Source of the DNA: Escherichia phage FP43
Sequence record: MN648445
Strand: one strand, 5' to 3'
DNA: 64,000 nt
The notes under the pieces were generated by a model that saw only the letters and a program-made list of their open reading frames with translations, did no database searches and had not been told where the DNA came from. The translations under genes were made by a program, and so were the position numbers. Below are positions 14,730 through 15,579 of the stretch, one piece after another (position 1 is the stretch's first letter; each line of letters starts with the position of its first letter).

Positions 14730-14804
14730 GGCCCTGTAGCTCAATGGGAGAGCTGTCAGCTCATAACTGATAGGTAGCTGGATCGAAACCAGCCAGGGTC
14801 ACCA
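14730..14804 (+). tRNA. tRNA with CAU anticodon (elongator Met, or Ile2 if C34 is modified)
   Basis: Hand-folded cloverleaf: acceptor GGCCCTG/CAGGGTC, D-arm GCTC/GAGC, anticodon stem GTCAG/CTGAT with loop CTCATAA, T-arm GCTGG/CCAGC, encoded CCA. Confidence 0.7.
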
Positions 14805-14807
14805 ATT

Positions 14808-14884
14808 CGAGGCATAGCTCAATTGTATAGAGCAACGGACTTCTAATCCGTAGGTTGAAGGTTAGAATCCTTCTGTCTCGACCA
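14808..14884 (+). tRNA. tRNA-Arg (anticodon UCU)
   Basis: Hand-folded cloverleaf: acceptor CGAGGCA/TGTCTCG, anticodon stem ACGGA/TCCGT with loop CTTCTAA, T-arm GAAGG-TTAGAAT-CCTTC, encoded CCA; T4 also has tRNA-Arg UCU. Confidence 0.7.
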
Positions 14885-14902
14885 ACTTCAAGTGAGGAAA
14901 AT

Positions 14903-15247
14903 ATGAAAGGCAATGTTTATCTGGTAGTTCATGATTTAACGTTTTATTTTAACGAACGTGAAACAGTTATTTCCGATAGGTTAATTAATTCGCTGTATCA
15001 GCATGCTGATTATGTTTATTTTCAAAATGAATTCGGACATTGGAAGTTTCTTAAAAACCGTTCTGGGTTAACTAGTTTTGAATACTTTGACCGTAAAGAC
15101 CTTTTAAACGAAATTCCATTACAACATCGGTTCCAGAAACGCGAATCATTATATTATTGCCGTCATATACCAAACGCAGAATGTGCCTATGAAGCGATTA
15201 ATCTATGGCGTCGGCGTCGAGAGCAAATTGATGATATGCCAAAATAA
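14903..15247 (+). CDS. Hypothetical protein
   Basis: 114-aa ORF from ATG 14903 with GAGGAAAA RBS directly after tRNA-Arg. Confidence 0.45.
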   Translation: MKGNVYLVVHDLTFYFNERETVISDRLINSLYQHADYVYFQNEFGHWKFLKNRSGLTSFEYFDRKDLLNEIPLQHRFQKRESLYYCRHIPNAECAYEAINLWRRRREQIDDMPK

Positions 15248-15249
15248 GA

Positions 15250-15549
15250 AGCCGGGTCGCTACCGGCAAGTCGTCGGACTGATGTTCCCTGAGTAGGGAC
15301 TGGTCTTAATAAATCTTTATGATTCGTTAATATCCCCTTACATCACAGCAGAAACGGCGCACAGAATTATCGATTCGAGGAAATATCTTTGCCGTAAGCC
15401 GAGTAGCGTTTTTGACGGGACGTTCGGATATGGTAGAGATATGGCCTTTTAAAAATATTGAGTAGCGTCAACTGCTTAATAACCGGGTTCGAATCCCGGC
15501 GTTTCGTACAAACACTTACCTAGTAGGTGGAAACCCCGACAAGGTATAT
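15250..15549 (+). ncRNA. Candidate small stable RNA(s) downstream of the tRNAs
   Basis: About 300 nt without a convincing ORF; several hairpins and a T-arm-like GGGTTCGAATCCCGG; ends at a strong terminator; T4 has small RNAs C and D in its tRNA region. Confidence 0.3.
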
Positions 15550-15579
15550 AGCCCCTTCCGAAAGGTTGGGGCTTTTTTT
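15550..15579 (+). terminator. Rho-independent terminator
   Basis: AGCCCC-loop-GGGGCT stem followed by T7. Confidence 0.75.

What the first reader, a model, noticed from the sequence alone, without database searches (positions are those of the whole stretch)
14730..15579. Reduced tRNA cluster followed by a 300-nt structured non-coding region
Only two tRNAs (CAU anticodon and Arg-UCU) are present, versus eight in T4. A protein gene begins 18 nt after tRNA-Arg. The following 300 nt contain hairpins and a T-arm-like GGGTTCGAATCCCGG but do not fold into a cloverleaf in my hands. They may encode small stable RNAs like T4 RNA C/D, or a degraded tRNA.
Basis: partly seen in the sequence, partly recalled or inferred. 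Interest (0 to 1): 0.45.

Follow-up and report, generated by a model that had tools for sequence, protein, structure and literature searches.

The report
Phage small RNAs rnaD and rnaC
The roughly 300-base non-coding stretch after the two-tRNA cluster of this RB69-like T-even phage carries the counterparts of phage T4's long-known small stable RNAs D and C; RNA C folds as a four-armed, tRNA-like molecule, and what either RNA does is still unknown.

Summary
The window comes from a Mosigvirus (an RB69/JS09-like T-even phage). It has two tRNAs, CAU (most likely lysidine tRNA-Ile) and Arg-UCU. An ORF of unknown function starts 18 nt later. After it come orthologues of T4 rnaD (species 2 RNA, about 15244-15364) and rnaC (species 1 RNA, 15371-15510), then a terminator at 15550-15579. 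The region is 88-90% identical to T4 and RB10, where these RNAs are annotated. No Rfam family covers either RNA. A covariance model built only from distant homologues hits 15371-15510 at 128.8 bits, and that is the only hit in the 64 kb.

Thirty-four distinct rnaC homologues from at least nine genera support a tRNA-like four-way junction. Its parts:
- a 7-bp acceptor-like stem with an invariant tandem U·U;
- a canonical T-arm and a U discriminator;
- a long arm;
- a 10-bp hairpin.

The two apical loops (UUGACG and CGUCAA) are complementary in all 34 sequences and co-vary in one clade. Of 43 pairs, 25 show compensatory changes.

It is neither a decaying tRNA nor a true tRNA. The element is already known. 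Its function is still unsolved. The structure gives testable handles.

The parts
14730..14804 (+). tRNA with anticodon CAU. ARAGORN calls it Met. It is most likely the lysidine-modified tRNA-Ile that reads AUA.
   Evidence: ARAGORN. Rfam tRNA 59.4 bits. It shares the GGCCCUG acceptor and D-arm start with T4 tRNA-Ile, at 70% identity. PMC1524935 states that the CAU tRNAs of T4-like phages carry tRNA-Ile(lysidine) signatures.
14808..14884 (+). tRNA-Arg (UCU), reading AGA
   Evidence: ARAGORN. Rfam tRNA 71.1 bits.
14903..15247 (+). 114-aa ORF of unknown function (phrog_3355), lying between tRNA-Arg and rnaD. It is absent at this position in T4 and RB10, where rnaD follows tRNA-Arg after 1 nt.
   Evidence: ORF list. 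PHROGs E = 1.4e-50, unknown function; no significant Pfam hit. T4 and RB10 layout.
15244..15364 (+). rnaD orthologue (T4 species 2 RNA). It has a 5' hairpin at 15251-15267 and a closing stem (15270-15276 with 15355-15362) around an irregular rod whose central part varies.
   Evidence: Coordinates transferred from the RB10 annotation through alignment A1. RNAalifold on 16 distinct homologues gives 32 pairs, 9 of them compensatory. 94.5% of cells are paired, against 32-53% when the partners are slid.
15365..15370 (+). 6-nt spacer (AAUUAU) between rnaD and rnaC. The base just before rnaC is U.
   Evidence: Sequence. T4 and RB10 annotations.
15371..15510 (+). rnaC orthologue (T4 species 1 RNA), a tRNA-like four-way junction. 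Annotation transfer from RB10/GiZh gives 15370-15508.
   Evidence: Independent covariance model R1: 128.8 bits, E = 2e-29, the only hit in the window. Alignment A3, RNAalifold and pair counts. MFE z = -4.93.
15371..15377 (+). rnaC acceptor-like stem, 5' strand CGAUUCG. It pairs with 15500-15506 (CGUUUCG). U4·U69 and U5·U68 are invariant mismatches.
   Evidence: Pair 3:70 is A-U in 16 sequences and G-C in 18, always coordinated. The other four standard pairs are kept in 33-34 of 34 sequences.
15378..15447 (+). rnaC long arm I. It starts with AGG/CCU directly on the acceptor stem. The apical loop UUGACG lies at 15412-15417.
   Evidence: 18 consensus pairs (helices 2-6), 14 with changes on both sides. 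The arm sequence is almost wholly replaced in Melville, PEi20, VPA32 and F48-type phages while the pairing is kept.
15448..15455 (+). A/U-rich single-stranded linker (UUUAAAAA)
   Evidence: Unpaired in the MFE and consensus structures.
15456..15481 (+). rnaC hairpin H4: a 10-bp stem (nine pairs in the consensus) with apical loop CGUCAA at 15466-15471, complementary to the arm I loop.
   Evidence: 8 of 9 stem pairs show compensatory changes. For example, PG7 has AAUUGUGA/UCGCAAUU against UUGAGUAG/CUGCUUAA here. Loop-loop pairing is 100% complementary in 34 of 34 sequences; A-U becomes G-C in the 5 Marfavirus-clade sequences.
15483..15499 (+). rnaC T-arm: CCGGG, loop UUCGAAU, CCCGG.
   Evidence: The middle pair is G-C in 17 sequences, U-A in 14, A-U in 1 and U·G in 1. 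The stem continues straight into the acceptor 3' strand, as in tRNA.
15507..15510 (+). Discriminator-like U followed by ACA. The Marfavirus clade encodes UCCA here.
   Evidence: Alignment A3, columns 142-145. F48 sequence.
15511..15549 (+). 3' trailer with a small hairpin, presumably removed during maturation
   Evidence: Fold. It aligns with T4, RB10 and GiZh, with a 9-nt deletion relative to RB10/GiZh.
15550..15579 (+). Intrinsic terminator: the GCCCC...GGGGC hairpin plus a run of seven U
   Evidence: Sequence and fold. The GiZh record annotates a terminator that maps to 15551-15579.

Best explanation
The segment 15244-15579 holds the orthologues of bacteriophage T4 rnaD (species 2 RNA) and rnaC (species 1 RNA), closed by an intrinsic terminator. 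These are two small stable RNAs that belong to the tRNA operon of T-even phages.

Shown here:
- Sequence homology and synteny with the annotated T4 and RB10 genes.
- A conserved rnaC secondary structure backed by covariation. The 5' and 3' ends form a 7-bp acceptor-like stem with an invariant tandem U·U. A canonical 5-bp T-arm follows directly, then a U discriminator and ACA (CCA in one clade).
- Two more arms leave the same junction: a long arm and a 10-bp hairpin. Their apical hexaloops (UUGACG and CGUCAA) are mutually complementary in every homologue.

Inferred:
- The RNAs are transcribed together with the tRNAs and the intervening ORF.
- rnaC is cut out like a tRNA. RNase P would recognise the acceptor/T-arm minihelix and make the 5' end after the AAUUAU spacer. 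The 3' trailer would be trimmed back, with possible CCA repair.
- The two loops kiss. That would lock the two extra arms into a closed, nuclease-resistant fold, which would account for the RNA's stability.
- The most likely mode of action is tRNA mimicry. The RNA would present an acceptor/T-arm surface, marked by the U·U pairs, to a tRNA-binding host or phage factor. It would not decode, because there is no anticodon arm.

The biological role of both RNAs is unknown, both in the literature and after this analysis.
For: Identity:
- blastn finds 806 phage records, with about 88% identity to T4 and about 90% to RB10.
- The T4, RB10 and GiZh records annotate rnaD and rnaC at the aligned positions, in the same gene order: 57B, ipI, tRNA.x genes, tRNAs, rnaD, rnaC, e.x genes.
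- Covariance model R1, built without any T4-, Mosigvirus- or Gaprivervirus-type sequence, scores 128.8 bits (E = 2e-29) at 15371-15510 and nothing else in the window.
- R1 scores at least 125 bits in all 45 true loci. It scores nothing in the loci that were picked up only by chance pattern matches.

Structure of rnaC:
- RNAalifold gives 38 pairs, 24 of them compensatory.
- With the loop-loop helix added, 98.4% of cells are paired, against 87.9% when shuffled (0 of 500 shuffles as high) and 37-49% when the partners are slid.
- 25 of 43 pairs have changes on both sides, against 4-7 when slid.
- MFE z = -4.93.

tRNA-like processing context:
- In Karamvirus, Moonvirus, Gelderlandvirus and Winklervirus the homologue sits inside the tRNA array, mostly just after tRNA-Trp and before tRNA-Gly, with tRNA-like spacers.
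- The Marfavirus clade encodes discriminator U plus CCA.

Reality of the transcripts:
- RNAC was detected by northern blot, and RNAC and RNAD were classed as late T4 RNAs (PMC9697503).
- A convergent SNP in rnaD arose when a T4-like phage adapted to a new host (PMC12685909).

rnaD: 94.5% of cells paired and 9 compensatory pairs.
Against: - No transcript data exist for this phage. The ends are transferred from T4-group annotations, which differ from the structural boundaries by 1 nt at the 5' end and 2 nt at the 3' end.
- Most lineages encode ACA, not CCA, after the discriminator, so a CCA end is not assured.
- The loop-loop interaction rests on invariance plus a single co-variation event in one clade. 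It could instead be an intermolecular contact or an alternative fold. In VPA32 the MFE prefers an extended duplex between the two arms.
- Three Karamvirus/Winklervirus-type sequences (LC53 plus IMG/VR contigs L044 and L081) replace the T-loop with UGCAUCC or UGCAUGC, so a canonical T-loop is not universally required.
- rnaD folds only marginally better than shuffles (z = -1.96), and its closing stem never varies, so that stem is untested.
- Nothing here identifies a binding partner or a phenotype.
Confidence: 0.9

Rival explanations
1. The T-arm-containing stretch is a decaying tRNA pseudogene, left over from the loss of the larger T4-type tRNA cluster.
For: It has a perfect T-arm and lies where T4 has more tRNAs. 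At a lowered threshold ARAGORN draws a 95-nt 'tRNA-?(Lys|Stop)' at 15415-15509. Rfam gives a sub-threshold tRNA-Sec match (15.2 bits, E = 8.2).
Against: - The same 140-nt element is present next to full tRNA sets: 8 in T4, 10 in RB10, about 20 in PG7. It is therefore not a by-product of cluster reduction.
- It is conserved across at least nine genera, with 25 compensatory pairs and 98.4% pairing.
- The bases ARAGORN uses as the acceptor 5' strand actually pair inside arm I. G/A variation there tracks U partners in the arm.
Confidence: 0.02
2. It is a functional decoding tRNA with a long variable arm, as some GenBank records annotate it (tRNA-Lys in phage 55 and G2133, tRNA-Met in PG7).
For: Annotations under the blast matches. 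The linker in T4-type sequences reads CUUUUAA, which resembles a tRNA-Lys anticodon loop (the resemblance is from memory).
Against: - No hit from ARAGORN at default settings or from Rfam tRNA at its gathering score.
- The putative anticodon stem is not supported by the consensus structure. The CUUUUAA stretch is unpaired linker and is not conserved: CUUUGAA, CUUCAUA, CUUACAA and CUUAUAA occur in other genera.
- The different 'identities' called in different phages for the same element point to mis-calls.
Confidence: 0.02
3. The region encodes small proteins. Several GenBank records place one or two hypothetical proteins here, and the window has minus-strand ORFs at 15367-15471 and 15476-15598.
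For: ORFs of 34 and 40 aa exist on the minus strand. Some records annotate 'hypothetical protein (x2)' under the match.
Against: - No reading frame is open in all 34 homologues.
- The frame that is open in the window carries stops in T4, GiZh, PG7, Moon and Melville.
- Lengths vary from 139 to 143 nt, which is not in steps of three.
- Substitutions follow base-pair covariation.
Confidence: 0.01
4. The structured RNA is only a cis-acting element: a 3' UTR stabiliser or processing signal for the upstream ORF and tRNA transcript, or a leader for the downstream gene. It would have no function of its own in trans.
For: It is co-transcribed and ends in a terminator. Structured 3' ends do protect transcripts. 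T4 mutants deleted for the tRNA region are viable (from memory of the T4 literature).
Against: - In T4 the two RNAs accumulate as discrete stable species (PMC9697503; PMC3014915).
- In other genera rnaC sits in the middle of tRNA arrays, far from any terminator or ORF end.
- Invariant loops and invariant U·U mismatches point to specific recognition rather than generic stability.
Confidence: 0.05

Closest known systems
Bacteriophage T4 rnaC (species 1 RNA, 139-140 nt) and its annotated copies in RB10, GiZh, Kha5h and ATK47
   Same: Orthologous. About 96% identical to T4 over the RNA itself (alignment A3). Same position downstream of rnaD, same terminator and same flanking genes.
   Different: Only a few substitutions, for example G in place of A at 15419, which keeps a U·G pair in arm I. 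In this phage an ORF separates the tRNAs from rnaD/rnaC.
Bacteriophage T4 rnaD (species 2 RNA, 119 nt)
   Same: Orthologous 5' hairpin, closing stem and 3' end. Same 6-nt spacer before rnaC.
   Different: The central portion diverges. At least four sequence variants exist among T4-group phages. T4 ends in ...CACCA, whereas the window has ...CACAG. rnaD was seen only in the T4, Mosigvirus and Gaprivervirus group, whereas rnaC is much more widespread.
Canonical tRNA (Rfam RF00005)
   Same: A 7-bp acceptor stem followed directly by a 5-bp T-stem with a UUCGAAU loop. A discriminator base. Location within tRNA operons. Presumed RNase P processing.
   Different: No D-arm and no anticodon arm. Twice the length. 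No spacer nucleotides 8-9. Invariant tandem U·U in the acceptor stem. It fails the tRNA covariance model.
tRNA-like domain of tmRNA (SsrA)
   Same: The 5' and 3' ends pair into an acceptor stem stacked on a T-arm, while the body of the RNA replaces the anticodon region.
   Different: No G3·U70 alanine identity pair (A-U or G-C here). No reading frame and no pseudoknot series. 140 nt against about 360 nt. ARAGORN and Rfam give no tmRNA hit.
Bacterial and phage Y-RNA-like YrlA (Rfam RF02553)
   Same: A stable non-coding RNA that carries a tRNA-mimicking module; the family is reported in some phages (from memory).
   Different: In YrlA the termini form the Ro-binding stem and the tRNA-like part is internal. 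Here the termini form the acceptor stem. The only weak YrlA match in the region (16.2 bits, against a gathering score of 69) lies on the true tRNAs, not on rnaC.

Membership tests
T4 rnaC / species 1 RNA | Sequence homology to the T4 rnaC gene | tested here: met
   blastn: about 88% identity to T4 over query positions 1-330 and about 90% to RB10. Aligned to the annotated RB10, GiZh and T4 features.
T4 rnaC / species 1 RNA | Conserved secondary structure shared with homologues, scored by a covariance model | tested here: met
   Model R1, built from 16 homologues outside the T4, Mosigvirus and Gaprivervirus groups, gives 128.8 bits (E = 2e-29) over all 140 model positions.
T4 rnaC / species 1 RNA | Genomic context: same strand as the phage tRNA genes, and downstream of or inside the tRNA cluster | tested here: met
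T4 rnaC / species 1 RNA | Accumulates as a discrete stable RNA of about 140 nt in infected cells | not testable with these tools
   Shown for T4 only (northern blot in PMC9697503). No expression data exist for this phage.
T4 rnaD / species 2 RNA | Sequence homology and position immediately upstream of rnaC | tested here: met
   Alignment A1 maps the RB10 rnaD feature to 15244-15364. Conserved 5' and 3' blocks in 21 distinct homologous sequences.
T4 rnaD / species 2 RNA | Conserved structure | tested here: inconclusive
   94.5% of cells paired and 9 compensatory pairs, against 2-4 when slid. However, the closing stem never varies, the central alignment is uncertain, and MFE z is only -1.96.
tRNA (RF00005) | Cloverleaf with D-arm, anticodon arm and T-arm that scores above the family threshold | tested here: not met
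   No RF00005 hit in 15248-15623 at the gathering score or at E <= 10. The only related match is tRNA-Sec at 15.2 bits against a gathering score of 47. ARAGORN at default settings finds nothing there.
tmRNA | tRNA-like domain plus a tag reading frame and pseudoknots | tested here: not met
   ARAGORN searches for tmRNA and reports none. No Rfam tmRNA hit. No conserved ORF.
RNase P substrate of tRNA type | Acceptor stem of 7 bp stacked on a T-stem of 5 bp, a 7-nt T-loop, a single-stranded 5' leader and a 3' RCCA | tested here: inconclusive
   The 12-bp minihelix geometry, the T-loop and the leader are present. The 3' sequence is UACA here and UCCA only in the Marfavirus clade. Cleavage itself cannot be tested with these tools.

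The most novel reading that the evidence does not exclude
RNA C is a dedicated tRNA mimic. Its acceptor/T-arm face, marked by the invariant tandem U·U and held rigid by a 6-bp kissing-loop lock, would bind and neutralise or redirect a tRNA-recognising factor. The target could be a host tRNA-targeting defence nuclease or toxin, or a component of the processing and CCA-adding machinery. On this reading RNA C would be an RNA-based counter-defence or host-adaptation element shared by enterobacterial T4-like phages, with RNA D as a lineage-specific partner. The convergent rnaD SNP seen during host adaptation (PMC12685909) is compatible with this reading but does not show it.
Probability: 0.12. Interest if true: 0.75.

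Novelty: already known. Interest (0 to 1): 0.3.

Why it matters
As a finding, this is a re-identification of two RNAs described in T4 in the 1970s, together with the known two-tRNA configuration of RB69-type phages.

Its residual value is that RNA C and RNA D are still described as RNAs of unknown function (PMC3014915, PMC9697503). They have no Rfam family. GenBank records routinely leave them unannotated, or label them as tRNA-Lys, tRNA-Met or hypothetical proteins.

The comparative model built here has four features that give concrete mutational targets for a 50-year-old open question:
- a tRNA-like four-way junction;
- an invariant tandem U·U in the acceptor stem;
- complementary apical loops;
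- an encoded CCA in one clade only.

The model could also seed a curated RNA family that would correct the annotations.

Tried and rejected
1. Rfam at gathering and at permissive thresholds. Only the two tRNAs pass. Everything in 15248-15623 scores 13-18 bits at E of about 1-8 and is noise.

2. ARAGORN at lowered thresholds gives a 95-nt 'tRNA-?(Lys|Stop)' at 15415-15509. I first took its internal ACGGGACG as the acceptor 5' strand. I rejected this because those bases pair within arm I in all lineages, and because Melville, PEi20 and VPA32-type homologues lack that sequence yet keep the terminal CGGUUCG/CGUUCCG pairing.

3. My hand-drawn helices (AGGA/UCUU and GCCGU/AUGGC) were superseded by the MFE and RNAalifold register. 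In that register 15383-15396 pairs with 15429-15442.

4. Searches for more divergent homologues:
   - IMG/VR pattern scans gave 9, 57 and 93 loci. Only about 20 are real and the rest are chance matches.
   - The metagenome scan gave 13 loci, 3 of them chance matches.
   - The scan of bacterial and archaeal genomes gave 3 loci in GC-rich bacteria. None is recognised by the covariance model.
   - Leaving the loops free in the pattern found no homologue with other loop sequences.

5. Literature. Only three held papers mention RNAC/RNAD, and all say the function is unknown. The 2003 T4 genome review and the 1970s-80s sequencing and processing papers are not in the library, so statements about RNase P processing of species 1 RNA rest on memory.

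6. A promoter dedicated to rnaD/rnaC. No late-promoter TATAAATA lies on the + strand between 11487 and 15581, and there is no sigma-70-like site just upstream.

7. Pfam and PHROGs on the three neighbouring ORFs returned unknown function only.
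Full report
**What is in the sequence**

ARAGORN and Rfam agree that the 64-kb window has exactly two tRNA genes: 14730-14804 (anticodon CAU) and 14808-14884 (Arg, UCU). An ATG at 14903, preceded by GAGGA, opens a 114-codon ORF that ends at 15247. From 15248 to 15623 there is no meaningful ORF. The stretch holds the T-arm-like GGGTTCGAATCCCGG at 15485-15499 and ends in a GC-rich hairpin followed by seven U at 15550-15579.

**Where the window comes from**

A 1-kb query around the finding is 96-98% identical to Escherichia and Shigella phages CAU_ECP01, LF82-41, SSE1, JS09 and HX01. LF82-41 is classified in Mosigvirus, the RB69-like genus of Straboviridae. Gene order around the site matches T4: 57A/57B, internal head proteins, the tRNA.x ORFs, the tRNAs, then the e.x ORFs.

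**Identity of the non-coding stretch**

- blastn of 15248-15623 finds 806 phage records, 677 of which cover at least 80% of the query. Identity is about 88% to T4 and about 90% to RB10.
- In RB10 the aligned DNA is annotated rnaD ('species II RNA', 121 nt) followed by rnaC (139 nt). The T4 reference and GiZh carry the same features.
- Transferring the RB10 and GiZh coordinates through an alignment places rnaD at 15244-15364, rnaC at 15370-15508 and the annotated terminator at 15551-15579.
- Rfam has no family for either RNA. Nothing in the stretch reaches a gathering score, and the permissive scan returns only noise.

**State of knowledge**

[quoted passage not shown] A 2022 transcriptome study classed them as late RNAs 'of yet unknown functions' and confirmed RNAC by northern blot (PMC9697503). 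A 2025 evolution experiment found one convergent SNP, inside rnaD, in all lines of a T4-like phage adapting to host ECOR34 (PMC12685909). The original sequencing and processing papers are not in the library. What I recall of them is that species 1 RNA is about 140 nt and is released from a dimeric precursor by RNase P. That is memory, not a tested result.

**Distribution of rnaC**

More distant T4-like phages match only the rnaC part of the query. I collected homologues from nine classified genera, plus one unclassified Straboviridae phage and uncultured contigs:

- Tequatrovirus, Mosigvirus and Gaprivervirus (VR7);
- Karamvirus (PG7, VPA32), Moonvirus (Moon, NM4.3) and Gelderlandvirus (Melville);
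- Winklervirus (LC53), Kanagawavirus (Kosakonia 305) and Marfavirus (F48, Marfa);
- Citrobacter phage Ursula, Edwardsiella PEi20, and IMG/VR and metagenome contigs.

This gave 34 distinct sequences. In the phages with many tRNAs, rnaC lies inside the tRNA array, mostly just after tRNA-Trp and ahead of tRNA-Gly, with spacers a few nucleotides long. I saw rnaD only in the T4, Mosigvirus and Gaprivervirus group.

**Structure of rnaC**

The window sequence 15371-15507 folds at -53.2 kcal/mol. Shuffles average -34.4, giving z = -4.93, and none of 200 folds as well. The fold has five parts:

1. A 7-bp stem between the termini, CGAUUCG (15371-15377) with CGUUUCG (15500-15506), containing tandem U·U.
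2. A long arm at 15378-15447, which starts with no spacer and ends in the loop UUGACG (15412-15417).
3. An A/U-rich linker at 15448-15455.
4. A 10-bp hairpin at 15456-15481 with the loop CGUCAA (15466-15471).
5. After one unpaired A, a T-arm at 15483-15499 that runs straight into the 3' strand of the terminal stem. Then come U15507 and ACA.

RNAalifold on the 34 sequences predicts the same architecture, with 38 pairs, 24 of which keep pairing through changes on both sides.

On a structure that also includes the loop-loop helix:

| Measure | Observed | Shuffled | 3' partners slid by 1-3 columns |
|---|---|---|---|
| Cells that form a standard pair | 98.4% | 87.9% (0 of 500 as high) | 37-49% |
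| Pairs with changes on both sides | 25 of 43 | 15.9 | 4-7 |

Some examples of the covariation:

- Acceptor pair 3:70 is A-U in 16 sequences and G-C in 18.
- The middle T-stem pair is G-C, U-A, A-U or U·G.
- The hairpin stem is UUGAGUAG/CUGCUUAA here and AAUUGUGA/UCGCAAUU in PG7.
- The long arm is almost completely rewritten in Melville, PEi20, VPA32 and F48-type phages, yet it keeps its helices.
- The U·U mismatches at acceptor positions 4 and 5 are invariant.

**An independent covariance-model test**

It hits 15371-15510 on the + strand at 128.8 bits (E = 2e-29) over all 140 positions. That is the only hit in the window. Over all fetched loci it scores at least 125 bits in the 45 true loci. 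It scores nothing in the loci that entered only through chance pattern matches, including three bacterial genome contigs.

**The loop-loop complementarity**

UUGACG (arm I) and CGUCAA (hairpin) are perfectly complementary in 34 of 34 sequences, although both stems vary freely. In the five Marfavirus-clade sequences the loops read UUGGCG and CGCCAA, a coordinated A-U to G-C change. I read this as an intramolecular kissing interaction.

The geometry is plausible. The proximal part of arm I spans roughly 18-20 bp. Its distal part is roughly 11 bp, beyond an internal loop and a 3-nt bulge. A sharp bend there would bring its loop back to the height of a 10-bp hairpin. This is an inference.

It rests on one co-variation event plus invariance. 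An intermolecular contact or an alternative fold is not excluded. In VPA32 the two arms are complementary well beyond the loops, and the MFE prefers a long duplex between them.

**The 3' end**

Most lineages encode U-ACA after the stem. The Marfavirus clade encodes U-CCA, the form expected of a tRNA gene with an encoded CCA. The T4-group annotations begin one base upstream of the structural 5' end and stop at ...GUA. Whether the mature RNA carries CCA cannot be decided here.

**Structure of rnaD**

Sixteen distinct homologues support three elements: a 5' hairpin (15251-15267, closing pair A-U or G-C), a closing stem (15270-15276 with 15355-15362) and an irregular central rod. There are 32 pairs, 9 of them compensatory. 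94.5% of cells are paired, against 32-53% when the partners are slid.

The closing stem never varies. The centre exists in at least four unrelated-looking versions. The window sequence folds only marginally better than shuffles (z = -1.96). T4 and RB10 end in ...CACCA, but the window has ...CACAG and others have CCG or CCT. An encoded CCA is therefore not a conserved feature of rnaD.

**Rivals**

- Decaying tRNA. Excluded by the conservation pattern, and by the presence of rnaC beside full tRNA sets.
- True tRNA. Some records annotate tRNA-Lys or tRNA-Met over it. This is excluded by the failure of the tRNA models, by the lack of a supported anticodon arm, and by the inconsistent 'identities'.
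- Small proteins. Excluded because no frame is open in all homologues and lengths vary by one and two bases.
- A purely cis-acting stabiliser. Unlikely, given discrete accumulation in T4 and the mid-array location in other genera. It is not formally excluded.

**How it most likely works**

The two RNAs are made as part of the tRNA operon transcript. In this phage that transcript also carries the phrog_3355 ORF. No late-promoter motif or sigma-70-like site lies just upstream of rnaD.

rnaC presents the same 12-bp acceptor/T-arm minihelix that RNase P and the 3'-end machinery recognise in tRNAs. It would therefore be excised like its tRNA neighbours. The kissing loops and long helices would make it compact and stable.

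With no anticodon arm it cannot decode. The invariant U·U pairs, the invariant loops and the conserved AGG/CCU junction point to recognition by a specific partner. tRNA mimicry toward a tRNA-binding factor is the best available guess. I put about 0.9 on the identity and structure, and perhaps 0.5 on the processing route. The biological role remains unknown.

**The tRNAs**

The CAU tRNA shares its acceptor stem (GGCCCUG) and D-arm start with T4 tRNA-Ile. Nolan et al. reported that every tRNA-bearing T4-like genome has such a CAU tRNA with lysidine tRNA-Ile signatures (PMC1524935). ARAGORN's 'Met' call is thus probably wrong. The pair retained here would read AUA and AGA. VR7 (Gaprivervirus) has the same layout of CAU tRNA, Arg tRNA, ORF, rnaD and rnaC.

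**Verdict**

The finding is real and correctly interpreted, but it is already known: T4 rnaD/rnaC orthologues next to the RB69-type two-tRNA cluster. Interest is modest. What lifts it above routine is that the function of these RNAs is a long-standing blank. The comparative structure obtained here makes it experimentally approachable and would fix widespread mis-annotation.

Noticed in passing
window 14642-14668: TTTGCTTTA, then 12 nt, then TATTAT lies about 60 nt upstream of the first tRNA. It resembles a T4 MotA-dependent middle promoter (MotA box plus a -10 element). It could drive the transcript that carries the tRNAs, the ORF, rnaD and rnaC. This was read by eye only; the sigma-70 scan does not cover this promoter class.
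   Followed up: no
window 15581-15588: TATAAATA, the T4 late-promoter motif, sits 2 nt after the terminator U-run and 36 nt upstream of the ATG at 15624. There is no other + strand copy between 11487 and 15581. The total of 6 matches in the window is no more than chance, so only the position is suggestive.
   Followed up: partly
window 15401-15409 and 15460-15468: The 9-mer GAGTAGCGT occurs twice in rnaC. Each copy forms the 5' strand leading into one of the two apical loops (arm I and hairpin H4). This may reflect an internal duplication or a shared recognition motif. It is not conserved in the Melville- or F48-type homologues.
   Followed up: partly
window 14903-15247; L001 2995-2997; L020 773-1327: The DNA between tRNA-Arg and rnaD is variable. 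It is 1 nt in T4 and RB10, a phrog_3355 ORF here, and a different ORF in VR7. In other T4-group contigs other sequence abuts the same AAGAA(A/G)CCGGG start of rnaD. The rnaD 5' boundary behaves like a recombination joint.
   Followed up: partly
L021 1535-1551 (Serratia phage LC53); L044, L070, L081: In these Karamvirus/Winklervirus-type sequences the rnaC T-loop UUCGAAU is replaced by UGCAUCC or UGCAUGC, while the 5-bp stem is kept. A canonical T-loop is therefore dispensable in those lineages.
   Followed up: no
L008 1368-1461 (phage 55), L005 2051-2145 (PG7), many records: Public records annotate the 3' two-thirds of rnaC as tRNA-Lys or tRNA-Met, or place 'hypothetical proteins' over rnaD and rnaC, or leave the region blank. 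VR7's record also lacks the tRNA-Arg that ARAGORN finds at L020 677-753.
   Followed up: yes
window 15445-15451: The unpaired CUUUUAA at the arm I/linker boundary has the same sequence as the E. coli tRNA-Lys anticodon loop (from memory). That tRNA is the target of the PrrC anticodon nuclease. The match is limited to T4-type sequences; other genera have CUUUGAA, CUUACAA and similar. It is probably coincidental, but it explains the 'Lys' calls.
   Followed up: partly
window 14808-14884: The window's tRNA-Arg(UCU) is only about 54% identical to T4 tRNA-Arg(UCU), whereas the CAU tRNA is 70% identical to T4 tRNA-Ile. The two tRNAs retained in Mosigvirus may not both be vertical descendants of the T4-type cluster.
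   Followed up: no
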